Positions 1-9,157 of a stretch of DNA of 21,969 nt are shown here, one piece after another. Both the position numbers and the translations under genes were made by a program. The stretch spans positions 1 through 21,969 of the IMG/VR virus record IMGVR_UViG_3300009149_000332. One strand, given 5' to 3'. The stretch comes from a virus. A model generated the notes under the pieces. It was not told the origin of the DNA and ran no database searches. It saw nothing but the letters and a program-made list of their open reading frames with translations. Within the stretch, counting starts at the first letter, position 1. Every line of letters starts with the position of its first letter.

Positions 1-2409
1 ATTACGCTCATCACAAACAATTAGGTAATCATAAACCCCTTCATTATTCTTCGCATAGTCGAATATAGGCGAAATAGCTGCTCTTAAACGGTTCTGTGTA
101 AATACAGTGTTTTGTTCAAACACGAAGTAACGCACGAGCTGTAATGTAGCCTTCTCAAGCCACAAGAACAATCTACGAACATTGATACGATCAAATGCCG
201 AAGGCTTCTTCTGTAATGTCTTCTGTCCCCAAACCACATAACCATCACCTGGCCAGTATACAATTGGATTCATACCACTCTTGTATAGCAAATCACGTTG
301 CTTCAAGGTTGGATTAATACCAAGATCTACGATGTCTTGTAGAATACCACGATTTAATCCAGCAGGTGCAAACCATGGGAAGAAATTAGTATCCGTATTA
401 ATCATAGTTCTGGATAGCCATCCCGATGATGGTAACCATACAAACTTACCAGCATAAGAGTCATAATGCTTGAGCCAGTTAGCATATGTACACGCGTAAC
501 TAGAATTTGCTGTACCGTAAAGATTCTTCAGCGGCCAGTATATATGCTGCGAGAAGTTCTTTGTCTGGTCATCCATAACCTTTACATCACCTTGTCCTTG
601 TACGAAGATGTAACGTAACGGGTCCGCAATATGTAAACAATCTTTACGAGTATCTTTGCAGAATGTATTGAATATTCCGTAAATAGTCTCATATAAATCG
701 CTCGCTTCTGAAGACGAGCCAGTAGCTTGACTCATTAAACCATCACTGTCCGAATCAAAGGTATGCGAATTCAAGATACCATCGATATAGTGCGTTTCAT
801 TGAATATCTCCTGCGTACGAGAGTAAGCATAATTATTCGTTGCATCAGATGGCCAGTTATTCATATCAAGAACCATACCTGTCCAGACGGTACCAAGACC
901 AGCTTCAGGAACAAGATCAACACGAATTAAATCACGGTTCTCTGCAAGACGTAATGCACGCTCAAGCTTCTGTGGAAGTTCGCCAATATACTTCTCACTA
1001 CCCTGACAGCTCTCAACATACTCACCAGTAGCATAGAGATTGTCTGCATTTACTAGATAACTATCTGCACTAGATAGATCAAATACAACTTTTGCTTTAC
1101 CGTGAGGCTCTGCTGGGTTAGTCGGATTATCACTCAATGCAACTCCATACTCATCTGTATTTGATTTTGCACCGCAAGCTACTCGAATCTTCTTGATTGG
1201 TAAACCATTCTGTGGATCGAACCATAGACCACTTCTCTCGGAAATATTTGGATTAATAAATACTCTCATTGTGGTTGATTCATTGTTAATAACGTCCTCT
1301 AGATAATAGTTTAGAGGTGATCCACCACGTGGATTATTAATAGTACGAGTACTATCAAACGAGCCGCTGTAAGTCTCTGAAACAACTCTATCAAGAACGC
1401 GATCCTCGGCGTTATATAATGATGGGCGTAGTTTGAACTGTGTAAATATAATACTGTCAGTATAACCACCTTGACCTTCATTACCAAATTCCCATCCTGG
1501 AACAGTCTCAACTATTTCAGAAATACAGCCTGGTGATTGACGATACGTACCAGTTAGTGCAAATGCTAAACGGTCAGTATTGAGCGTCAACCATTCTGTG
1601 TTAGTTGTAGAACTATTAATAGTCTTTGCTTTTAATACTGAATCGAAATTAGAACCTTTATCAATCTTCGAGTTATCGGCAATCGCGATATAATATCCAC
1701 CGAATGTTTCGTCAATTACAGACTTAATCTCGTTAACAACGATTAGACCGTTATAGCCGACGTTTGATAACAATGCAGCCTCTGTAGTTGTGTAACCAGA
1801 TGGCATCTGTCCGTCTTTCCAGTTAATTCCACCTTGTAGCCACTGAAGATAAATCTCTTCGTTAACTACTGTGTGAACTGGTTGACCTAAATAGTAATTC
1901 TCTGCTGTTGAGAATTTCGGTGTGGTTGCAGCAGTAATGCCTGATGCTTCGTATGTTGTTGTAATCTTTACATTAGAAATAGATTCTGTTTGTGAACTAA
2001 ATTTCCAACGGAACGAATCATAATCACTATCGACTGGTGTATATGTACCTGTCCATGCACTATCATTAGATACAAAAGCTCCACCAGAAAGAGTAAATGT
2101 TACCGCTTTCCTTGTAGTTGAACTTTCACCAGATAGGCTTACTGTTAATCCACTAAATCCTGCATAGTTTGGCTCAGTACCGGAAACAGCACTATAAACA
2201 TTATAAGTATTATTCCAGTTTTGACCTGTTGCAGCTACCTGCAAGTACTGATGAATATGTGGCTGCTGTAATGCCGGTTGCATATTCATCGATGTCTGAA
2301 TTCCACGGAAAGCATGGAAAAGCAAGAACACTATAATTAGATGTGTATCCTGTTCCTCCACCTGAACCGTAAGGAATACGAGTGACAAGCAATGTGCCAT
2401 TAGCTTGCA
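1..2409 (-). CDS. Tail sheath protein (gp18-like), main body and C-terminus. It is partial (runs off the window start) and lies in a frame offset by +1 from the N-terminal ORF.
   Basis: My minus-strand translation of 121-200 gives AFDRINVRRLFLWLEK, which matches the conserved T4 gp18 C-terminal motif PFDRINVRRLF. The same frame (codon 5' positions divisible by 3) is open at about 1000 (YVESCQGSEKYIGELPQKLE) and at 2213-2409. The frame-B stop is at 2410-2412. It is absent from the ORF track because no stop falls inside the window. Confidence 0.7.
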
Positions 2410-2629
2410 TTACTTGTTTACATGTGTGATAGAAATACCGCTCTGCAGCATTCTCCGGTTGGCCATAAATCTGTTCAAACTCTGAAATACTAGTTACGTT
2501 AACAAGTTCATCTGTAGGACCTTGTGGGGCATAACCAGCACAGAAAACAGTTGTGCCTACTGGAAGCTCGGTATTAAAACTTAAATCAATTTCTCTTATC
2601 TCTACGCCTGGGCTCTCAATTGTTCGCAT
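2210..2629 (-). CDS. Tail sheath protein (gp18-like), N-terminal 139-aa segment. It ends at a TAA that the main sheath frame bypasses.
   Basis: MRTIESPGVEIREIDLS... resembles the T4 gp18 N-terminus MTLLSPGIELKETTVQS. The block ...GPTDELVNVTSISEFEQIYGQPENAAERYF resembles gp18 ...GPAFQIKQVTNEVDLVNTFGQPTAETADYF. There is a strong SD (agaggag) about 6 nt upstream of the ATG at 2629. Confidence 0.8.
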   Translation of the reverse strand: MRTIESPGVEIREIDLSFNTELPVGTTVFCAGYAPQGPTDELVNVTSISEFEQIYGQPENAAERYFYHTCKQVMQANGTLLVTRIPYGSGGGTGYTSNYSVLAFPCFPWNSDIDEYATGITAATYSSVLAGSCNRSKLE

Positions 2630-3357: not shown

Positions 3358-3737
3358 TAAAATACCTCCTGCCAATAATCGACCTCTTTACCCTTTCTCG
3401 GTAAAAGTTTAAAAGTTTTCGTGTCCATCAAATCTTTCGCTTTTCTCTGCTCTAGCCATCCCTTTTCTTCAAGATATTCAAACATAATCTCATATCGAAA
3501 ATTACCATTATTATCGGCAAAAAGTTTCCATACATTCGACTTCATTTCTGAATCAGCGTCAAATACTGCTTGAGATATCACCGGATCAACGTCATGTGTT
3601 CCAAACCAATTAATACCTACTTCACTCAAAATAGCATCATAAACTACTTCTAGTATCTCGTTAACGCGATCTTCTCCATACTCTTTCGAGTATATCTGAT
3701 AATATTGATTAAACGAACCTATCATAGACTGCTCCAA
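3357..3737 (-). CDS. Hypothetical protein, 126 aa, between TerL and the tail tube gene.
   Basis: It is a complete ORF. Its start overlaps the TerL 3' end by 16 nt and its stop overlaps the tail tube start. I recognise no motif. Confidence 0.45.
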   Translation of the reverse strand: MEQSMIGSFNQYYQIYSKEYGEDRVNEILEVVYDAILSEVGINWFGTHDVDPVISQAVFDADSEMKSNVWKLFADNNGNFRYEIMFEYLEEKGWLEQRKAKDLMDTKTFKLLPRKGKEVDYWQEVF

Positions 3738-5266
3738 CCTGCTTGGTGTAGTTCGTTTATTCCTTGGCCTCCTGGTGAAAATTGTCCTGATGTTGGAGAT
3801 GATCCGATAATCGTCGGTAGTGGAGCATTTTCATTCTTCTGGAAGAAGTCATCTAGTTTAAATATACCTGGTTCTGTAATTGTATAGTTTTGAATCTTAA
3901 GCGGTTTACCTTGATCATCATACGCAACGATTTCATAATGCTGTTGACAAATCTCTTCTTGTAGAACATATAGACCCCAGACTAGAGACAATACTCTATC
4001 ATCATAAATCTGATTGCCTTGCTTAGCCTTCCAAGTGCCGTTTGGATACCGTACAAATGTTTGAAGCTCTTGAACAGTTGCAATATCGTATATTTTAACA
4101 ACCTTAAGAGTATTCATCCAATAACGCATATTCATTACACCATTATACTTGGTATTAGTATGTGAATAAATACCTTGCCGTATATCTCCGTACTTAAGAT
4201 TCGATGGATTATGACTAACTAGATTATGATAGTTGTGCTTCTCATTCAGTGAAGTTATCACCTCACCACCGCAATTGTTTCTCTCGATTAACATCGGCGG
4301 TCTACCCCAATGGTTTCCGATGCGGTTTAATACTTCTGCAAATCGTGTTGGGTGAATTGCGTTATTGTGATAGCATGCAACTTGCTCAATATGCGTTAAG
4401 TCTGTGAAGTCAAATATTTGCGCTACAGATGCTGCTCGTCCGATGCCTTCGCTAACATCAACTCCTATACCGTATATATGGCCTGCTTGAGGTTCAGCCC
4501 AAACTCTATAATGTCCATCTTCAAACGTCTGCAGAGGTAATCTGCATTGCTCTTTATAGTCTTCAAGAACAGATGCATCAATAGCAGATTCTCCTGTCTC
4601 TAAAAATACACACTCAAACTCTTGTGCAAATAATTGCTCATCGTTACCAAGAGCAGCCTTCATATCTGCAATCCACTTTTTACCGTGTCCTGGTACTTCA
4701 CTATAATGAATATTCTCTGCATGCCAAGAAATTCTACCTTCTATAGCCTCACCTCGCTGTGCTTTTGAATAAATTTCGTGGAACTTGTTACCTGTACCTT
4801 TCGGAGTACTAACAGCAAAAATCTTTGTAGTTCCTTTTCGAGATGACGAAATAACAGGAATAACTGATGCCCAAAAGTCATCAATAAGATGAGATTCAAT
4901 GTGAGCCATTTCGTCGATAATGATGCATTGATGACTTAATATACCATTTGCAAAATATGTATGAGTATCTTCAATTTCAAGAAATTCAAACACTTCCTCA
5001 TCATTTTCAAATTCATTAATCGACTTAACAACATCATTGAAAATCTTGTTTCCAACTTGTAGGTCATTTGCAAAAACATAATCAGTTTCATTAACCATTA
5101 ATTTATGCTTTGGTGTACAAATTAGTTGCTTATTAGATTGAAAAGTTAAATGAATTTTGTTCGGATTTTTACCACAGAAAACTCCTTTGAAATCTTTAAA
5201 CCCTTCTTCGGTCAAGATTTCATATTCTGTATTCTCAAATACATCAAAATTTGTTAAATCAGCCAT
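3722..5266 (-). CDS. Large terminase subunit, C-terminal gene (TerL-C). Its N-terminal 113 aa form the C-part of a split intein, followed by Walker B, the remaining ATPase domain and the nuclease domain.
   Basis: After ...FEFLEIEDTHTYFANGILSHQ comes C, then IIIDEMAHIESHLIDDFWASVIPVISSSRKGTTKIFAVSTPKGTGNKFHEIY. This aligns with T4 gp17 [47 protein letters not shown]. The ATG at 5264-5266 overlaps the upstream ORF stop (TAATG). Confidence 0.85.
   Translation of the reverse strand: MADLTNFDVFENTEYEILTEEGFKDFKGVFCGKNPNKIHLTFQSNKQLICTPKHKLMVNETDYVFANDLQVGNKIFNDVVKSINEFENDEEVFEFLEIEDTHTYFANGILSHQCIIIDEMAHIESHLIDDFWASVIPVISSSRKGTTKIFAVSTPKGTGNKFHEIYSKAQRGEAIEGRISWHAENIHYSEVPGHGKKWIADMKAALGNDEQLFAQEFECVFLETGESAIDASVLEDYKEQCRLPLQTFEDGHYRVWAEPQAGHIYGIGVDVSEGIGRAASVAQIFDFTDLTHIEQVACYHNNAIHPTRFAEVLNRIGNHWGRPPMLIERNNCGGEVITSLNEKHNYHNLVSHNPSNLKYGDIRQGIYSHTNTKYNGVMNMRYWMNTLKVVKIYDIATVQELQTFVRYPNGTWKAKQGNQIYDDRVLSLVWGLYVLQEEICQQHYEIVAYDDQGKPLKIQNYTITEPGIFKLDDFFQKNENAPLPTIIGSSPTSGQFSPGGQGINELHQAGWSSL
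4928..5266 (-). other. Split-intein C-part (IntC, 113 aa). It begins at the translational start of the TerL-C gene and carries Hint blocks B, F and G. Cys (4925-4927) is the +1 extein residue.
   Basis: Block B reads LICTPKHKLMV (TxxH). Blocks F and G read VFEFLEIEDTHTYFANGILSHQ followed by C. The terminal residue is Gln rather than Asn. Confidence 0.7.
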
Positions 5267-5748
5267 TATTGTTCTTCTATATAAAATTTAATAATTTCGC
5301 TTCTGTCTTTGACTGTGAATTGAATACCTCTTTCAACAGCTATCCGCTTAATTTTAAGTATTTCGGACATATTATCGTCATTTATAATATTTGGTTCTAT
5401 ATTTATATGATAAATATCTTTAATTTTAACACAGCCTTTTATTTGTAGAATTCCCCCCTCTACTTTACTATATTTGCTACGCAATATAATATCTTTATTA
5501 GTTTTGATAGTAAAAAGTACATCTGGATCCGACCAAGTACCACAATATAGGTATTCATCATCTATCTTTTTACTAAATGTAGATGTATAAACATAATCAC
5601 CATAATTTTTCGATCCTCTTTCTTGTGATATAACATTTCGCTCATCTTCGCTATCAACAAGATCCCAAAGTGGACAAATTTCCTCACGCATCAAAATAAG
5701 AAGAGCGTTATCTATACTTGTCTCATGGAAGCAAAATTTATTAATCAT
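5266..5748 (-). CDS. Hypothetical protein, 160 aa, encoded between the two halves of the terminase gene and the split intein.
   Basis: It has its own SD (gagagg, about 8 nt before the ATG at 5748). Its stop overlaps the TerL-C start. I see no recognisable LAGLIDADG, GIY-YIG or HNH motifs. The upstream TerL-N gene ends with two stops, TGA AAA TGA. Confidence 0.5.
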   Translation of the reverse strand: MINKFCFHETSIDNALLILMREEICPLWDLVDSEDERNVISQERGSKNYGDYVYTSTFSKKIDDEYLYCGTWSDPDVLFTIKTNKDIILRSKYSKVEGGILQIKGCVKIKDIYHINIEPNIINDDNMSEILKIKRIAVERGIQFTVKDRSEIIKFYIEEQ

Positions 5749-5778
5749 CTTTCAAACCTCTCAAATATTAACTCATTT

Positions 5779-7494
5779 TCATTTTTCATCTAATTTTATA
5801 TCCAATCTATTATTAATTTTAACCCTATTAAACAATTCAGACATCTCGATGTCTTCAATTTTTCCTGTCTTTTTATTTCGAACCGTAACAATATTATCTC
5901 CAGTAATACAGTTTACAGAATCACCACGAACTGCACTACCAGTTGTAGTTGAAATAGCTATACTAGATCCGTTGCCGAAAATAACTTCAGTGCCGCCCCA
6001 TGTAGCTAGACCAGGTTTGAGCCAGTTAGGTAATTCTTCAAAAGCCATTTTAATACGGCGAAGAATCATAATAGCCGTTTTTTCTTTATTGGCTACAATA
6101 ACAACTCTTTTATTTGATTGAAAGCAAGTATACCATAAAGCATAAATGGTCATAAGAGTGGTGTTTGCACTAACAATATTAGTTTTTCCTATTGTAAATA
6201 ATTCATCTTCTGCATCCACTGTTATACATCGAACAGGTACTGATTGGATTTTAGTTATATTTTTAATATAATGGTTTACTTGTTTTATAGAAACATTACA
6301 ATTTTGTTTATCAATTTTTCGTTTAAATTTAAATACAGGAAAAGGAGAACTAAAAGTAATGCGAAACATCGGTTTACCAATTTTTGTTTGCTTTGGATTC
6401 ATGTTTTTTAAAAATACATTTTTAGTAGCATGTAATCCTAGTGATCTAACAAGTTCTAGAGCTTCATCAGCTAGTTGCTCATTGGTGTTGTAAAATACAC
6501 ATTTTTTTCCTACTGTCGATCCATCTGTATCCATTAACCCTTTTAACAGTTCTAATCTTTGTGCCTTACTGCTTCGTAAATATACTTCAGGTATATGCTT
6601 GTTACGATATACATTTAATTCCCTAAGCAATGTGATTAACCTCTTACCGTCTTTATATTTGTCCTGATTTATCCATAAAATATAATGACCATCCGGTTGT
6701 GTTATTTCTTCACGGATAATATCTGGATCAATATCAAGACACCTTCTTGCCTCTTCTACATCAAAACGAGATACACTCAAAGCTGGAGCTCTCGAAAATC
6801 CGTCACCTAACCAATAACCAAGTAGGTACGGATCAACTAAAAGATCTCGCTCTGGGTATTCAAAAGCTGGCGCACTTGGTACAGAATAATTTAATTGTGG
6901 ATATTTCTGATTAACTGTAAGCTTATTAAGAAATTCTTTTGTTGTATATATTCTACCTACTCTTTTATGACATCTATCATAATGAGATTGCGCCCACCAT
7001 CTATGATCTTCATCTGCAATTATCTTTTCACCGCTACTAAACTCAATTTCGTAACAAGTTCTGTTATACAAGATATCATGTGCACGAACAACTCTAGTAG
7101 GTTCTCCGTTAGAGCCGAATACAACATCATTGTCCTTTAGTTGACCCATTGTCGTCCAGCCTGCCGGAGTAGGTACTGGGGTATCTAGTGCAAGCGCTTT
7201 CCCAACCTGTCTCGATGCATTTACAATTACAAATCGATTACTAGTCAGTGATTTTAAAACTCGTCTTTGAGAACGATATAAATCAATTTTTCGTTTACCT
7301 TCATCCACATCAACAATAAAAAAGTAATTCTGTGCAAAATATCCGAGATCATTTTTAGATTTTTTTAGTTCCGCAATTCGCTGTGGAGTCCACTCAAACT
7401 CAGCATCAGCGCGTGGTAATCTTTTATTACGCAGATATGTTTGATTATCAGATAGCTCTACATCATCAACCATTTTTTTAGGATCTATTTTCAT
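5779..7494 (-). CDS. Large terminase subunit, N-terminal gene (TerL-N). It holds N-extein aa 1-99 with Walker A, a 345-aa intein, 83 aa of extein, and a C-terminal 43-aa split-intein N-part.
   Basis: ...FVIVNASRQVGK is then interrupted, and the extein resumes as TTLMTIYALWYTCFQSNKRVVIVANKEKTAIMILRRIKMAFEELPNWLKPGLATWGGTEVIFGNGSSIAISTTTGSAVRGDSVN. This aligns with T4 gp17 [91 protein letters not shown]. Confidence 0.85.
   Translation of the reverse strand: MKIDPKKMVDDVELSDNQTYLRNKRLPRADAEFEWTPQRIAELKKSKNDLGYFAQNYFFIVDVDEGKRKIDLYRSQRRVLKSLTSNRFVIVNASRQVGKALALDTPVPTPAGWTTMGQLKDNDVVFGSNGEPTRVVRAHDILYNRTCYEIEFSSGEKIIADEDHRWWAQSHYDRCHKRVGRIYTTKEFLNKLTVNQKYPQLNYSVPSAPAFEYPERDLLVDPYLLGYWLGDGFSRAPALSVSRFDVEEARRCLDIDPDIIREEITQPDGHYILWINQDKYKDGKRLITLLRELNVYRNKHIPEVYLRSSKAQRLELLKGLMDTDGSTVGKKCVFYNTNEQLADEALELVRSLGLHATKNVFLKNMNPKQTKIGKPMFRITFSSPFPVFKFKRKIDKQNCNVSIKQVNHYIKNITKIQSVPVRCITVDAEDELFTIGKTNIVSANTTLMTIYALWYTCFQSNKRVVIVANKEKTAIMILRRIKMAFEELPNWLKPGLATWGGTEVIFGNGSSIAISTTTGSAVRGDSVNCITGDNIVTVRNKKTGKIEDIEMSELFNRVKINNRLDIKLDEK
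5782..5910 (-). other. Split-intein N-part (IntN) at the C-terminus of TerL-N. It carries Hint block A only.
   Basis: CITGDNIVTVRNKKTGKIEDIEMSELFNRVKINNRLDIKLDEK follows the extein ...AVRGDSVN (T4: AVRGNSFAM). The pattern C..GD..V.....GKI.IEDL is block A. A stop follows before block B. Confidence 0.7.
6163..7197 (-). mobile_element. Intein (345 aa) inserted in the Walker A P-loop between GK and T. It starts with Ala, carries an internal LAGLIDADG homing endonuclease, and ends ...IVSAN with Thr at +1.
   Basis: Block A reads ALALDTPV. Block B reads GEKIIADEDHRWW, with His and Trp in the expected positions. LAGLIDADG motif 1 is LLGYWLGDGFS and motif 2 is LLKGLMDTDGST. Block F reads PVRCITVDAEDELF and block G reads NIVSAN followed by T. 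The Ala1, block-B Trp, block-F Cys and +1 Thr pattern fits class 3 inteins. Confidence 0.75.
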
Positions 7495-7981
7495 TTCTTT
7501 CTATTAACCTCGCTTTATGTCCTTGAACGTCAATATCTCTAACAGTATAATTCGGTAAATAGGGGGCTATCTGTACTATTAACTTTCCGTAAATGCGATA
7601 TAATTGTTCATTCTTTGCGATTAAGATAATTTTCTGTGGTTGCATCATTTTAATAAAGTTATAAGTTATTCCTGCTATTTTTTGTAAAACATTTAATGAG
7701 TGTTTAGTTATATTACCATATTCAGTTCTCACAGGAGCTGAAGCAACGAAATCTACTTTAAAAAAACCGGGTTCTATCTCACTAGCAACCCATATATGCG
7801 ATACATCACCACCACTATAAAAACTATATGAATATACGTCATCTCCCATCCAAGGAACATTTCCAATCGATGGAATATAATTGCCGTACTCCTTAGGATC
7901 AAACCTTTCGGATATTAGAAAAGAGTTGAAATACTTTTCAAAATTTGTTATCTTATTCATTATTGTCTTCGCTGTGTTCAT
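7478..7981 (-). CDS. Hypothetical protein, 167 aa. It sits where a small terminase subunit would be, immediately upstream of and overlapping TerL. I see no TerS-like sequence features.
   Basis: It is a complete ORF overlapping the TerL start by 17 nt. Only its position suggests a role. Confidence 0.4.
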   Translation of the reverse strand: MNTAKTIMNKITNFEKYFNSFLISERFDPKEYGNYIPSIGNVPWMGDDVYSYSFYSGGDVSHIWVASEIEPGFFKVDFVASAPVRTEYGNITKHSLNVLQKIAGITYNFIKMMQPQKIILIAKNEQLYRIYGKLIVQIAPYLPNYTVRDIDVQGHKARLIERNENRS

Positions 7982-8287: not shown

Positions 8288-9157
8288 ATGAGAGATATGT
8301 TAGCAGAACAATATGAATTAGTACTTGAGAATCAAATGAAAGGTACGGTCGACGCACCTGGAATGGCAAAGCCGGGCCAGAGTATGCTAGATAAAGATAC
8401 TAAAAAAGCATCTGGGCTAGGTGTTGAAAGTCCTGCTGCAAAGGCTGTTGGTTCTCCAAAGGAGATGGATAAGAAGTTAAATCCGGGTCACGGAAAAATT
8501 ATGAAAGAAAGGGATATGGACGAAATGTTACCAGAAAGCAGTTTTGACAAATTATTTAAAGCTACATTAATTGAAGAGGAACTCGGCGATGATGAGAGCC
8601 CACTTGAGCAGACAGGTGGAGATGAATTTAATGATGAAATGGGAGATTTCCCACCAGACGGTGAAGGTGATGATGATCTCGGTGAGGAAGTCGATGTAGC
8701 CACAGAGCTACGAATGATTATCGATCGCTTAACTGAAATTGCAGAGAAGCTCGGTGCTTTTGATGAAGAGTCAGAAGAAGAGGGTGGAGAAGGTTTCGGT
8801 GAGGATGAAATGGGCGGTGAAGGATTTGGTGAGGAAGAGCCAGTTGTTCCAGAAGCTGTAACATACGGCAAAGGCGGTGGTGGTAAAGCTGGTGGACCAG
8901 GTAAAGGTTCAGATGGCAAACTATCTGCATTCCCAGATCGCACCTCCCAGATGCAATCAAAGGGTAGCCAGAAGGTTAAGCATAGCGCTGTAACATCAAA
9001 GCAGACAGCAGCTGGTAAGGCTAGTGCTGGCGGACCAGGTAAAGGTTCAAACGGTAAGCTCGGTTCTTTCCCAGATCGTACATCACACATGCAGTCAAAA
9101 GGTAGCATGGTTGTGAAGTCGGAGATGGGTAAAGCAGGCCGAAGCGTTTTTGATTAA
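8288..9157 (+). CDS. Acidic, low-complexity protein (289 aa) with Gly/Glu-rich segments and a tandem 46-aa repeat. It may be a head scaffold, core or internal protein, but its function is unknown.
   Basis: An SD (aaggag) lies 9 nt upstream. The repeat AGGPGKGS(D/N)GKL(S/G)(A/S)FPDRTS(Q/H)MQSKGS occurs twice. GGEGFGEDEMGGEGFGEEE is also present. Antisense ORFs 8488..9108 and 8718..8960 are compositional artefacts. Confidence 0.6.
   Translation: MRDMLAEQYELVLENQMKGTVDAPGMAKPGQSMLDKDTKKASGLGVESPAAKAVGSPKEMDKKLNPGHGKIMKERDMDEMLPESSFDKLFKATLIEEELGDDESPLEQTGGDEFNDEMGDFPPDGEGDDDLGEEVDVATELRMIIDRLTEIAEKLGAFDEESEEEGGEGFGEDEMGGEGFGEEEPVVPEAVTYGKGGGGKAGGPGKGSDGKLSAFPDRTSQMQSKGSQKVKHSAVTSKQTAAGKASAGGPGKGSNGKLGSFPDRTSHMQSKGSMVVKSEMGKAGRSVFD
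8891..8968 (+). repeat. Direct repeat unit 1 (about 78 nt). Its partner is at 9029..9106, giving a 138-nt period.
   Basis: ggtggaccaggtaaaggttcagatggcaaactatctgcattcccagatcgcacctcccagatgcaatcaaagggtagc compared with ggcggaccaggtaaaggttcaaacggtaagctcggttctttcccagatcgtacatcacacatgcagtcaaaaggtagc. Confidence 0.8.
9029..9106 (+). repeat. Direct repeat unit 2 (about 78 nt). It is an imperfect copy of 8891..8968.
   Basis: It was aligned by eye with unit 1, as given there. Confidence 0.8.

What the first reader, a model, noticed from the sequence alone, without database searches (positions are those of the whole stretch)
3722..7494. Large terminase encoded as two genes joined by an atypical naturally split intein with a short N-part
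TerL-N ends with extein ...AVRGDSVN followed by CITGDNIVTVRNKKTGKIEDIEMSELF..., which is Hint block A only, and then two stops. After a separate 160-aa gene, TerL-C starts with 113 aa carrying block B (TPKH) and blocks F and G (EDTHTYFANGILSHQ). It then resumes precisely at the extein with C-IIIDEMAH, the Walker B motif, which in T4 gp17 reads AM-IYIDEC. The break therefore lies between blocks A and B. This is the atypical split architecture with a tiny IntN and a long IntC, reported so far only from metagenomic TerL genes, for example the AceL-TerL type. Here it is in full genomic context. The terminal residue is Gln, not Asn. A functional terminase would require protein trans-splicing of two polypeptides, one of which must also cis-splice a second intein.
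Basis: partly seen in the sequence, partly recalled or inferred. Interest (0 to 1): 0.8.

Follow-up and report, generated by a model that had tools for sequence, protein, structure and literature searches.

The report
Terminase gene broken by split intein
In a T4-like phage, the gene for the DNA-packaging motor is cut into two genes by a self-splicing protein element broken unusually near its start; this rare arrangement is known, but here it sits at a new site, ends in glutamine, and holds an ADP-ribosyltransferase-like gene where a homing nuclease normally sits.

Summary
On the minus strand, TerL-N (7494..5779) ends in a 43-aa intein N-piece (CITGDN...). An intact 160-aa gene follows (5748..5266). 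TerL-C (5266..3722) then opens with a 113-aa intein C-piece ending SHQ|CIIIDE. Removing both inteins in silico gives a 584-aa protein that aligns without gaps to T4 gp17 across Walker A and Walker B. The region is base-identical in three other independent assemblies.

The architecture is the known "atypical" split, first seen in Dassa 2009's terminase fractured gene and later in AceL-/GOS-TerL. It is not the AceL-TerL allele. AceL-TerL sits about 100 residues downstream at QEFE|C, a site that is empty in this window.

This intein belongs to an apparently undescribed family of 48 distinct IntC sequences in IMG/VR. All sit at the Walker-B site N|C-h-h-h-DE, and 39 end in Gln. In 50 of 66 related loci the gap holds a GIY-YIG homing nuclease. 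Only this phage carries ORF160, a near-orphan gene whose predicted fold resembles ADP-ribosyltransferases (Tpt1, DarT).

The first intein looks like a class-3 LAGLIDADG intein in the P-loop. Splicing itself is inferred, not shown. Overall this is a new variant of a known kind and of moderate interest.

The parts
5779..7494 (-). TerL-N gene (571 aa). It contains extein 1, the contiguous intein-1, extein 2 and the short N-piece of the split intein.
   Evidence: ORF list. PHROG terminase large subunit, E 5e-73. Alignment to T4 gp17.
7198..7494 (-). Extein 1 (aa 1-99). It ends in the Walker A sequence ...NASRQVGK.
   Evidence: Gapless alignment to T4 gp17 SRQLGKTT once aa 100-444 are removed.
6163..7197 (-). 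Intein-1, 345 aa, contiguous, with a LAGLIDADG endonuclease domain, inserted in the P-loop (GK|TT). It begins with Ala, has H-R-W in block B and R-C-I-T-V-D in block F, and ends SAN|T. These are class-3-like signatures.
   Evidence: Pfam LAGLIDADG_3, E 1.4e-6. Boundaries. Motifs compared with the class-3 definition in PMC2807308.
5911..6162 (-). Extein 2 (aa 445-528), TTLMTIY...GSAVRGDSVN. This is the ATPase segment between Walker A and Walker B.
5782..5910 (-). IntN: the 43-aa N-piece of the split intein (CITGDNIVTV...DIKLDEK), block A only. The stop codon is at 5779-5781.
   Evidence: Cys1 is present in 44 of 45 distinct relatives, and family IntN lengths run 35-51 aa. The piece is colinear with the contiguous homologue L094. 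GC is 25.6%.
5266..5748 (-). ORF160: an intact 160-aa gene in the gap between the intein halves. It is a near-orphan with a predicted ADP-ribosyltransferase-like fold, and it is not a recognisable homing endonuclease.
4928..5266 (-). IntC: the 113-aa C-piece of the split intein (MADLTNF...ANGILSHQ), with blocks B, F and G and a terminal Gln113.
   Evidence: Best match among solved structures is CatC, 6dsl_B, E 2.7e-7. There are 48 distinct relatives in which T51, H54, H102, N107 and the +1 Cys are at least 90% conserved. GC is 27.7%.
3722..4927 (-). Extein 3 (401 aa plus stop). It starts at Cys+1 of the Walker B sequence CIIIDE, then covers the rest of the ATPase domain and the nuclease domain.
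   Evidence: Alignment to T4 gp17 and RB49 gp17. Terminase_6N.
4610..4624 (-). Unoccupied AceL-TerL-type insertion site (QEFE|C).
   Evidence: AceL-TerL locus L007 reads QTEFE|C...SHN|CEFLGS. Relatives L002 and L003 carry a second or third split intein at this site. Coordinates.
7478..7981 (-). Upstream 167-aa gene in the position of the small terminase subunit (T4 gp16). Its end overlaps the TerL-N start.
   Evidence: Position only, and synteny with phage TG1. No family hit.

Best explanation
This is a genuine "fractured" large-terminase gene of a T4-like phage. A mobile low-GC element at 4928-5910 sits inside the Walker B strand, at RGDSVN|CIIIDE. The element is a HINT-domain intein broken right after block A, plus a cargo gene.

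Proposed mechanism:
1. TerS, TerL-N, ORF160 and TerL-C are probably transcribed together. ORF160 and TerL-C are probably translationally coupled through the overlapping TAATG.
2. TerL-N first or concurrently removes its P-loop intein in cis by the class-3 route. The block-F Cys attacks the K99-A100 bond, the N-extein is transferred to Thr+1, and Asn444 cyclises.
3. The 43-aa IntN tail docks onto the 113-aa IntC of TerL-C to complete the HINT fold.
4. Cys529 makes the thioester, and the N-extein is passed to Cys+1 (C114 of TerL-C).
5. The terminal Gln113 cyclises to release the intein, and an S-to-N acyl shift gives a normal peptide bond.

The product is a 584-aa TerL with contiguous Walker A and Walker B motifs. 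Neither half alone has a complete ATPase site.

What is shown: the anatomy, the exact extein restoration, the family-wide conservation and the reproducibility across assemblies. What is inferred: the splicing chemistry, the order of the steps and the co-transcription.

ORF160 most likely replaced the GIY-YIG homing endonuclease that occupies this gap in most relatives. It is a passenger gene with a predicted ADP-ribosyltransferase fold and an unknown substrate.
For: - Both inteins excise precisely in silico, giving a gapless alignment to T4 gp17 at E 2.8e-55. Domain scores rise above their cut-offs only after joining.
- The best match to IntC among solved structures is CatC, the consensus of the atypical TerL split inteins (6dsl_B, E 2.7e-7), followed by gp41-1 and VidaL.
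- The family was surveyed in 12 metagenomic proteins and 77 IMG/VR loci. It has 48 distinct IntC sequences at 40-58% identity.
- Cys1 (44/45), block-B Thr (48/48), block-B His (47/48) and Cys+1 (48/48) are conserved. The terminal residue is Gln in 39, Asn in 7, and cut off by a contig end in 2. Conservation of this kind across divergent phages implies selection for splicing.
- A contiguous mini-intein at the same site (L094), and one with an in-frame GIY-YIG domain at the break point (L100), show that the two pieces are halves of one intein.
- The region is identical in four independent assemblies.
- No second TerL copy is present in the roughly 27 kb available.
- There is no Rfam intron and no minus-strand terminator-like site in the locus.
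- Inteins ending in Gln are known to splice, for example CIV RNR and Pab PolII (PMC4031507).
- Atypical TerL split inteins have been shown to trans-splice in vitro, namely AceL-TerL and GOS-TerL as summarised in PMC11766414.
Against: - There is no experimental evidence of splicing for this allele.
- Gln cyclisation is slow in some inteins. The penultimate His is not conserved in the family, which shows HQ, RQ, KQ, NQ, SQ, EQ and QQ. Step 3 could therefore be inefficient.
- A single-sequence AF2 model of the fused intein failed, with pLDDT 34.8, so the fold is inferred from homology only.
- The host and the full genome are unknown. A second TerL elsewhere in the genome cannot be excluded.
Confidence: 0.8

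Rival explanations
1. The two halves work as a non-covalent complex. The intein pieces would have become mere docking domains and would no longer complete splicing. A precedent is the HEG-split NrdA of phage Aeh1, which reassembles without ligation.
For: The terminal residue is Gln instead of Asn, and the penultimate residue varies across the family. Gln slows C-terminal cleavage in Pab PolII. Functional genes-in-pieces without splicing are documented in PMC3045599, listed, and are mentioned.
Against: Cys1, the block-B Thr and His, and Cys+1 are essentially invariant across 48 distinct sequences. A pure docking role would not require this. A 156-residue HINT domain would also remain lodged inside the Walker B beta-strand of the ATPase core. 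The CIV RNR intein splices better with Gln than with Asn.
Confidence: 0.1
2. The gene is dead. On this view the TerL locus is decaying in a defective phage or relic, and the stop codons reflect pseudogenisation of a once-contiguous intein with a degraded endonuclease.
For: The same window copy carries a 2-bp deletion that frameshifts the tail sheath gene relative to L004 and L005. At least this sampled genome therefore has one damaged essential gene.
Against: The TerL region is identical in four assemblies, including ones with an intact sheath gene. All three ORFs are intact. IntC has its own conserved M-A-D-L start, and the IntN stop is at the family-typical position. There are 66 related loci with the same split. 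ORF160 shows no similarity to any endonuclease.
Confidence: 0.04
3. The intein is really contiguous and the split is a sequencing or assembly artefact, or the parts are joined at the RNA or translation level by an intron or a programmed frameshift or bypass.
For: Contiguous alleles do exist at this site in two related loci, L094 and L100.
Against: There are zero differences in 3722-7494 among four independent assemblies. A 512-nt gap holding a complete, unrelated ORF separates the halves. No Rfam intron family matches anywhere in the window. IntN and IntC carry their own stop and start codons at positions conserved across the family.
Confidence: 0.02

Closest known systems
AceL-TerL atypical split intein (Thiel et al. 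2014; summarised in PMC11766414)
   Same: The host protein is a T4-like TerL. The intein is broken just after block A, giving a short IntN (25 aa) and a long IntC (104 aa). It has Cys1 and Cys+1 and shares the HINT family, since CatC, the consensus of this group, is the best PDB match at E 2.7e-7.
   Different: The insertion site differs: QTEFE|CEFLGS at the end of the ATPase domain, against Walker B N|CIIIDE here. The two are 25% identical. AceL-TerL ends in Asn, has no gene between the halves in L007, and has a shorter IntN.
Terminase "fractured gene" / GOS-TerL (Dassa et al. 2009, PMC2677866; Bachmann & Mootz 2015)
   Same: Split-intein halves flank a free-standing gene inside a myovirus gp17-like terminase. 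The C-piece (122 aa) contains all motifs except N1. IntN is 37 aa.
   Different: GOS-TerL uses Ser1/Cys+1 and is described as the close homologue of AceL-TerL. Its insertion site was not checked here. In fractured genes the gap gene is a GIY-YIG or Vsr-like endonuclease, whereas here it is an ART-fold near-orphan gene.
Unannotated split TerL genes of cultured phages (Yersinia phage vB_YenM_TG1 / phiR1-RT; Campylobacter phage CP21)
   Same: They are T4-like phages with a short IntN of about 35-41 aa and a long IntC in or next to Walker B, with a gene in the gap.
   Different: The sites differ by 2-6 residues: TG1 has IDE|C and CP21 has RGFS|C. Both end in Asn. The TG1 gap gene is a TnsA-like endonuclease. 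Identity to the window's intein is 30%.
Inteins with C-terminal Gln (CIV RNR, Pab and Mma PolII; PMC4031507)
   Same: A terminal Gln replaces Asn, and Gln cyclisation is presumed to occur in step 3.
   Different: Those inteins are contiguous and sit in other hosts. Here Gln is the majority state of a whole split-intein family, in 39 of 46 distinct complete sequences.
Class 3 inteins (MP-Be DnaB prototype; PMC2807308), for intein-1
   Same: A non-nucleophilic first residue (Ala), Trp at block B position 12, Cys at block F position 4, Thr+1, and insertion in the P-loop of a helicase-like ATPase. Terminase large subunits are named among the hosts.
   Different: Block G position 5 is Ser, not Thr (IVSAN). 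The mechanism is untested here.
ADP-ribosyltransferase-fold enzymes Tpt1/KptA and DarT, for ORF160
   Different: There is no sequence-level similarity, in Pfam at E<=10, in PDB profile searches, or in hhalign against E. coli KptA at probability 0.3%. ORF160 is only 160 aa. Model confidence is modest, at pLDDT 65.8.

Membership tests
Intein (HINT domain, class 1 chemistry) | Cys, Ser or Thr at intein position 1 | tested here: met
   Cys529 of TerL-N (CITGDN). Cys is present in 44 of 45 distinct relatives.
Intein (HINT domain, class 1 chemistry) | Block B T-x-x-H | tested here: met
   T51-P-K-H54 in IntC. Thr is conserved in 48/48 and His in 47/48.
Intein (HINT domain, class 1 chemistry) | C-terminal Asn, usually preceded by His | tested here: not met
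   The intein ends His112-Gln113. Gln is a documented functional substitute and is the majority state in this family, with 39 Gln against 7 Asn.
Intein (HINT domain, class 1 chemistry) | [quoted passage not shown] | tested here: met
   Cys114 of TerL-C, conserved in 48/48.
Intein (HINT domain, class 1 chemistry) | In-frame insertion whose removal restores a conserved host motif | tested here: met
   Gapless alignment to T4 gp17 Walker B after excision. Terminase_6N scores 56.8 bits only after joining.
Intein (HINT domain, class 1 chemistry) | Protein-splicing activity | not testable with these tools
   This needs co-expression or mass spectrometry.
Atypically split inteins (short IntN) | The two intein parts lie on separate ORFs. 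IntN carries block A (N1) only, and IntC carries blocks B, F and G. | tested here: met
   IntN is 43 aa ending at a stop codon. IntC is 113 aa with its own ATG. The break point matches AceL, TG1 and L003 in the alignment.
AceL-TerL / Cat allele | Same insertion point in TerL (QEFE|CEF) | tested here: not met
   AceL locus L007 is inserted at QTEFE|CEFLGS. The window is inserted at RGDSVN|CIIIDE, and its QEFE|C site is empty.
AceL-TerL / Cat allele | Close sequence similarity or interchangeable fragments | tested here: not met
   Identity to AceL-TerL is 25%. The match to CatC is homologous but distant, at E 2.7e-7.
Fractured gene sensu Dassa 2009 | A conserved enzyme gene broken by a split intein, with a free-standing gene between the halves | tested here: met
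   ORF160 lies between IntN and IntC.
Fractured gene sensu Dassa 2009 | The intervening gene is a homing endonuclease (GIY-YIG or Vsr-like) | tested here: not met
   ORF160 gives no nuclease family hit and no BLAST link to the gap genes of relatives. Its predicted fold is ART-like. In 50 of 66 related loci the gap gene is a GIY-YIG endonuclease.
Class 3 intein (intein-1) | Non-nucleophilic residue 1, plus the Trp(B12)-Cys(F4)-Thr(G5) triplet, plus Ser or Thr at +1 | tested here: inconclusive
   Ala100 is residue 1. DEDH-R-W gives Trp at B12, and VR-C-ITVD gives Cys at F4. G5 is Ser instead of Thr (IVSAN). The +1 residue is Thr, and the insertion is in the P-loop. Motifs were placed by eye against the published description, not with a profile.
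ADP-ribosyltransferase superfamily (ORF160) | ART fold | tested here: met
ADP-ribosyltransferase superfamily (ORF160) | Sequence-profile membership or a catalytic H-Y-E / R-S-E motif | tested here: inconclusive
   There are no Pfam or PDB profile hits, and hhalign against KptA is not significant. The invariant His8, Tyr54 and Glu97 are candidates only.

The most novel reading that the evidence does not exclude
ORF160, an ADP-ribosyltransferase-fold protein, may have taken over the slot that a GIY-YIG homing endonuclease occupies in about three quarters of related loci. On this reading it is itself the drive or retention factor of the element. For example, it might place a DarT-like ADP-ribose lesion on the intein-less TerL allele, or on a competitor's DNA or RNA, which would provoke recombinational repair and copy the element in. 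Alternatively it might act as an addiction or anti-defence factor that keeps the fractured gene from being lost. This would be a non-nucleolytic form of homing.
Probability: 0.07. Interest if true: 0.85.

Novelty: new variant of a known kind. Interest (0 to 1): 0.5.

Why it matters
- Split inteins with a short, synthesisable N-piece are prized tools for protein semi-synthesis, and few natural ones are characterised (AceL-TerL, GOS-TerL, VidaL, PolB16). This locus points to a family of 48 distinct natural sequences at a different TerL site, most ending in Gln. I found no characterised split intein ending in Gln in the papers I read.
- Some relatives carry two or three atypical split inteins in a single TerL gene (L002, L003). 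These would have to avoid cross-reacting, so they may be a natural source of orthogonal pairs.
- The family holds several states of one intein at one site: a contiguous mini-intein, an intein with in-frame GIY-YIG, split with a free-standing GIY-YIG gene, split with an empty gap, and split with a non-nuclease cargo. This gives a testable series for the Dassa model of how endonucleases enter and break inteins.
- An ART-fold gene in the endonuclease slot is unexpected. It may be a simple passenger or a new kind of selfish cargo.

Tried and rejected
- A megablast of the locus against 50,697 phage records gave no match. The phage has no close cultured relative. A tblastn search of the same collection with IntC plus 61 extein residues gave only matches below 60% identity.
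- A single-sequence AF2 model of the fused IntN+IntC failed, with pLDDT 34.8, and was not used. The tool does not accept the IMG/VR sequences that would have given a deep alignment.
- For ORF160, Pfam, PHROG and PADLOC searches, a PDB profile search and hhalign against E. coli KptA were all negative. The ART assignment therefore rests on predicted structure only.
- A Foldseek search against viral models returned only uncharacterised proteins. The afdb50 library was unavailable.
- I considered that the window's intein was the AceL-TerL allele. This was rejected after fetching the AceL locus.
- I considered an intron or RNA-level join. No Rfam family matches anywhere in the window.
- I considered an assembly artefact. 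This was rejected because four assemblies are identical.
- I considered that ORF160 was a degraded GIY-YIG gene. There is no BLAST link to the 50 GIY-YIG gap genes, and the 512-nt gap leaves no room for remnants.
- The promoter and terminator scan gave nothing beyond chance that bears on expression.
- Two key papers, Bachmann & Mootz 2015 and Stevens et al. 2018, are not held in the library.

Full report
**1. The observation**

Three co-oriented minus-strand ORFs fill 7494..3722.
- TerL-N: 7494..5779, 571 aa.
- ORF160: 5748..5266, 160 aa.
- TerL-C: 5266..3722, 514 aa.

TerL-N ends ...GSAVRGDSVN|CITGDNIVTVRNKKTGKIEDIEMSELFNRVKINNRLDIKLDEK, followed by TGA-AAA-TGA. TerL-C begins MADLTNF..., carries TPKH, and reads ...EDTHTYFANGILSHQ|CIIIDEMAH.

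I removed aa 100-444 of TerL-N and the two intein pieces in silico. The resulting 584-aa protein aligns to T4 gp17 (3ezk_A, E 2.8e-55) with no gap at either junction. SRQVGK-TTLM pairs with [10 protein letters not shown] (Walker A). RGDSVN-CIIIDEMAHI pairs with [16 protein letters not shown] (Walker B).

Pfam behaves as expected for a broken gene.
- Terminase_6N is sub-threshold on TerL-C alone (15.5 bits). It reaches 56.8 bits on the joined protein.
- Intein_splicing passes its cut-off only when IntN and IntC are fused (36.1 against 35.8 bits).

The window is 99.8-100% identical to contigs from three other sources: ENA ERZ27249621, JGI 3300024262 and Logan SRR5210834. Positions 3722-7494 have no differences at all. 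The stop codons are therefore real. The only correction is that IntN is 43 aa, not about 27.

**2. What kind of intein it is**

The best solved-structure match of the fused intein is CatC (6dsl_B, E 2.7e-7). CatC is the consensus of the atypically split TerL inteins. The next matches are gp41-1 and VidaL.

The architecture has been published.
- Dassa et al. 2009 described a gp17-like terminase "fractured" at an unusual point. Its 122-aa C-piece holds all motifs except N1 (PMC2677866).
- AceL-TerL (IntN 25 aa) and GOS-TerL (IntN 37 aa) were later shown to trans-splice (summarised in PMC11766414).

I fetched the AceL-TerL locus from IMG/VR (L007, 99% match to the published IntC). It is inserted at ...QTEFE|CVYGDT... 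/ ...VVSHN|CEFLGS, with no gene between the halves. That position is about 100 residues downstream of the window's site. In the window it is unoccupied (AQEFE-CVFLETG, 4610-4624). The two inteins are 25% identical. So the window shares the AceL-TerL architecture and superfamily but is not that allele.

**3. The family at this site**

A word-indexed search found 12 metagenomic relatives of IntC at 46-57% identity. A pattern scan of IMG/VR found 77 loci. I located the junctions by tblastn and stop-to-stop translation. This gave 48 distinct IntC sequences, all followed by C-[LIV]-x-x-D-E, which is the same Walker-B site.

- The terminal residue is Gln in 39, Asn in 7, and cut off by the contig end in 2.
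- Cys+1 is conserved in 48/48, block-B Thr in 48/48 and His in 47/48.
- Cys1 of IntN is present in 44 of 45 distinct sequences.
- IntN length is 35-51 aa, with a median of 44.
- The penultimate residue varies (H, R, K, N, S, E, Q).

Conservation of the catalytic set across this divergence is the main indirect evidence that the intein splices. Gln-terminated inteins are known to splice. CIV RNR does so better with Gln than with Asn, while Pab PolII is slower with Gln (PMC4031507).

**4.

Two related loci have a contiguous intein at this site.
- L094 is a roughly 155-aa mini-intein, colinear residue for residue with the window's IntN plus IntC.
- L100 has a GIY-YIG domain fused in-frame exactly at the atypical break point.

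The other 66 loci with both halves present are split. This count includes the window and L034, which is the same phage as the window. Their gaps hold the following.

| Gap content | Loci |
|---|---|
| One homologous free-standing GIY-YIG gene (SegE_GIY-YIG, 29.1 bits, above cut-off) | 50 |
| Nothing (gap of 2-74 nt) | 10 |
| ORF of about 560 aa (DUF7487) | 2 |
| 71-aa HNH-like fragment (motif read by eye) | 1 |
| 400-aa ORF | 1 |
| ORF160 (this phage only) | 2 |

The window's gap is 512 nt and is filled entirely by the intact ORF160, so it is not a frameshifted endonuclease.

The element at 4928-5910 is also a low-GC island. IntN is 25.6% GC, ORF160 29.0% and IntC 27.7%, against 33-39% for the exteins. 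This is consistent with an acquired mobile element.

**5. ORF160**

ORF160 has no Pfam, PHROG or PADLOC hit. The 5.8-billion-sequence word search returned only the protein itself.

An exhaustive HMMER scan of 1.84 billion representatives found three relatives at 29-31% identity. They share the invariant motifs FHET, YG.YVY..T and E.G. These relatives lie elsewhere in phage contigs. One follows a gp13 neck gene and is directly followed by a TnsA-like endonuclease ORF. Another sits next to a baseplate gene. TnsA-like endonuclease is the same family that fills the TerL gap in Yersinia phage TG1.

Sequence-level confirmation failed. I therefore rate "ART fold" as probable, at roughly 0.6, and the substrate as unknown. 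The simplest reading is a passenger gene that replaced the GIY-YIG gene in a protected slot. The speculative reading is given as the novel case.

**6. The other intein**

Residues 100-344... more precisely aa 100-444 of TerL-N form a 345-aa intein with a LAGLIDADG domain (Pfam E 1.4e-6). It is inserted at GK|TT of the P-loop.

- It begins with Ala.
- It has DEDH-R-W, which places Trp two residues after the block-B His.
- It has VR-C-ITVD...F in block F.
- It ends IVSAN|T.

This matches the published class-3 signature: a non-nucleophilic first residue, Trp B12, Cys F4, Thr or Ser at +1, and a P-loop of a helicase-like ATPase, with terminases named among the hosts (PMC2807308). The exception is Ser instead of Thr at G5. 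It is a known kind of intein.

**7. Context in other phages**

The Walker-B region of T4-like TerL is a hot spot for such elements.

| Phage or locus | Arrangement |
|---|---|
| Yersinia phage TG1 | Split at IDE|C, IntN 41 aa, TnsA-like gene in the gap |
| Campylobacter phage CP21 | Split at RGFS|C, plus a contiguous intein at VDE|C and another in the P-loop |
| Salicola phage SCTP-2 | IntC-like N-terminus ending VSQ|CDEF |
| Vibrio VmeM-32 and Desulfovibrio SRB7757 | Contiguous inteins at IDE|C |
| Metagenomic L003 | TerL in four pieces with three atypical split inteins (P-loop, Walker B, AceL site) |
| Metagenomic L002 | TerL in three pieces |

The architecture therefore already exists in complete genomes of cultured phages, where it is annotated only as duplicate "terminase large subunit" CDSs.

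**8. Mechanism and rivals**

The best explanation, at confidence 0.8, has two steps. The class-3 P-loop intein splices out in cis. The class-1 atypical split intein then splices in trans, using Cys1, Cys+1 and Gln113 cyclisation. Together these give a 584-aa TerL. The anatomy and conservation are shown, and the chemistry is inferred.

The rivals are as follows.
- Non-covalent complementation without ligation (0.10). It is disfavoured by the invariant nucleophiles and by the position inside the Walker B strand.
- Pseudogene or defective phage (0.04). This window copy does have a frameshifted sheath gene, but the TerL locus is intact and identical in assemblies with an intact sheath gene.
- Artefact or RNA-level joining (0.02). 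This is countered.

No second TerL occurs in the roughly 27 kb available. The rest of the genome is unseen.

**9. Novelty and score**

The kind is known: an atypically split intein in a fractured TerL gene. As far as the papers I could read show, four things are new.
- This insertion site and its sizeable family.
- Gln as the family's majority C-terminal residue in a split intein.
- The co-occurrence with a class-3 intein in the same polypeptide.
- A non-nuclease, ART-fold gene in the endonuclease slot.

I rate it a new variant of a known kind, with interest 0.5. It would be useful to intein engineers and to people studying homing-element evolution, but it is not a surprise in principle.

Noticed in passing
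window ~2240 (tail sheath gene, minus strand, about 1..2629): The window has a 2-bp deletion relative to L004 and L005, where the sheath gene is an intact 920-aa ORF. In the window the N-terminal sheath ORF stops after 139 aa (2210..2629). This is either a frameshifted essential gene in this sampled genome or an assembly error.
   Followed up: partly
window 6163-7197 (-): The first TerL intein has class-3 signatures (Ala1, Trp B12, Cys F4, Ser G5, Thr+1) and a LAGLIDADG domain, and it sits in the P-loop. One polypeptide therefore combines a class-3 cis-splicing intein with a class-1 trans-splicing intein.
   Followed up: partly
window 5266-5748 (-): ORF160 is a near-orphan gene with three relatives among 1.84 billion representative proteins. 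Its predicted fold is ADP-ribosyltransferase-like (Tpt1/DarT-like). It occupies the slot that holds a GIY-YIG homing endonuclease in 50 of 66 related loci.
   Followed up: yes
L003 2861-7837; L002 4378-8834: Related metagenomic phages encode TerL in four pieces (L003) or three pieces (L002). L003 has three atypical split inteins, at the P-loop, Walker B and the AceL site. The inteins in one gene would have to be mutually orthogonal. The gaps hold a 355-aa ORF with a weak restriction-endonuclease-like hit, a GIY-YIG gene, an unknown 315-aa ORF, or nothing.
   Followed up: partly
L094 4299-6536; L100 796-2364: Contiguous alleles exist at the window's insertion site. L094 is a mini-intein colinear with IntN plus IntC. 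L100 has a GIY-YIG domain fused in-frame exactly at the atypical break point. Both are possible intermediates in how an endonuclease enters or breaks an intein.
   Followed up: partly
L001 (Yersinia phage TG1), L114 (Campylobacter phage CP21), L112 (Salicola phage SCTP-2): Cultured-phage GenBank records contain short-IntN split TerL genes annotated only as two terminase CDSs or left unannotated. TG1 is split at IDE|C with a TnsA-like gene in the gap. CP21 is split at RGFS|C and has two further inteins. The SCTP-2 TerL ORF starts with an IntC-like segment ending in Gln (VSQ|CDEF).
   Followed up: partly
L040 and L042: After the Walker-B extein CLVIDEMAFIE, another short IntN starts at a Cys, and a further IntC ending SHN|S/T lies downstream. 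This suggests yet another atypical split-intein site a few residues after Walker B.
   Followed up: no
window 16350-18563 (+) and 20530-21882 (+): A 737-aa protein has a Major Vault Protein shoulder domain (PF11978, E 1e-25) and a vault repeat. About 2 kb downstream lies a 450-aa SPFH/Band-7 protein. This is an unusual pair for a T4-like phage.
   Followed up: no
window 8288-9157 (+): A 289-aa acidic, Gly-rich, low-complexity protein contains an internal direct repeat (GPGKGS[DN]GKL[SG][AS]FPDRTS[QH]MQSKGS). It lies in a locally high-GC stretch (45.6%) and has no family hit.
   Followed up: no
L030 1825-2783: P0014, a relative of ORF160, sits between a gp13 neck gene and a TnsA-like endonuclease ORF, and its stop overlaps that ORF's start. 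The ORF160 family may therefore travel with homing-endonuclease cassettes.
   Followed up: partly
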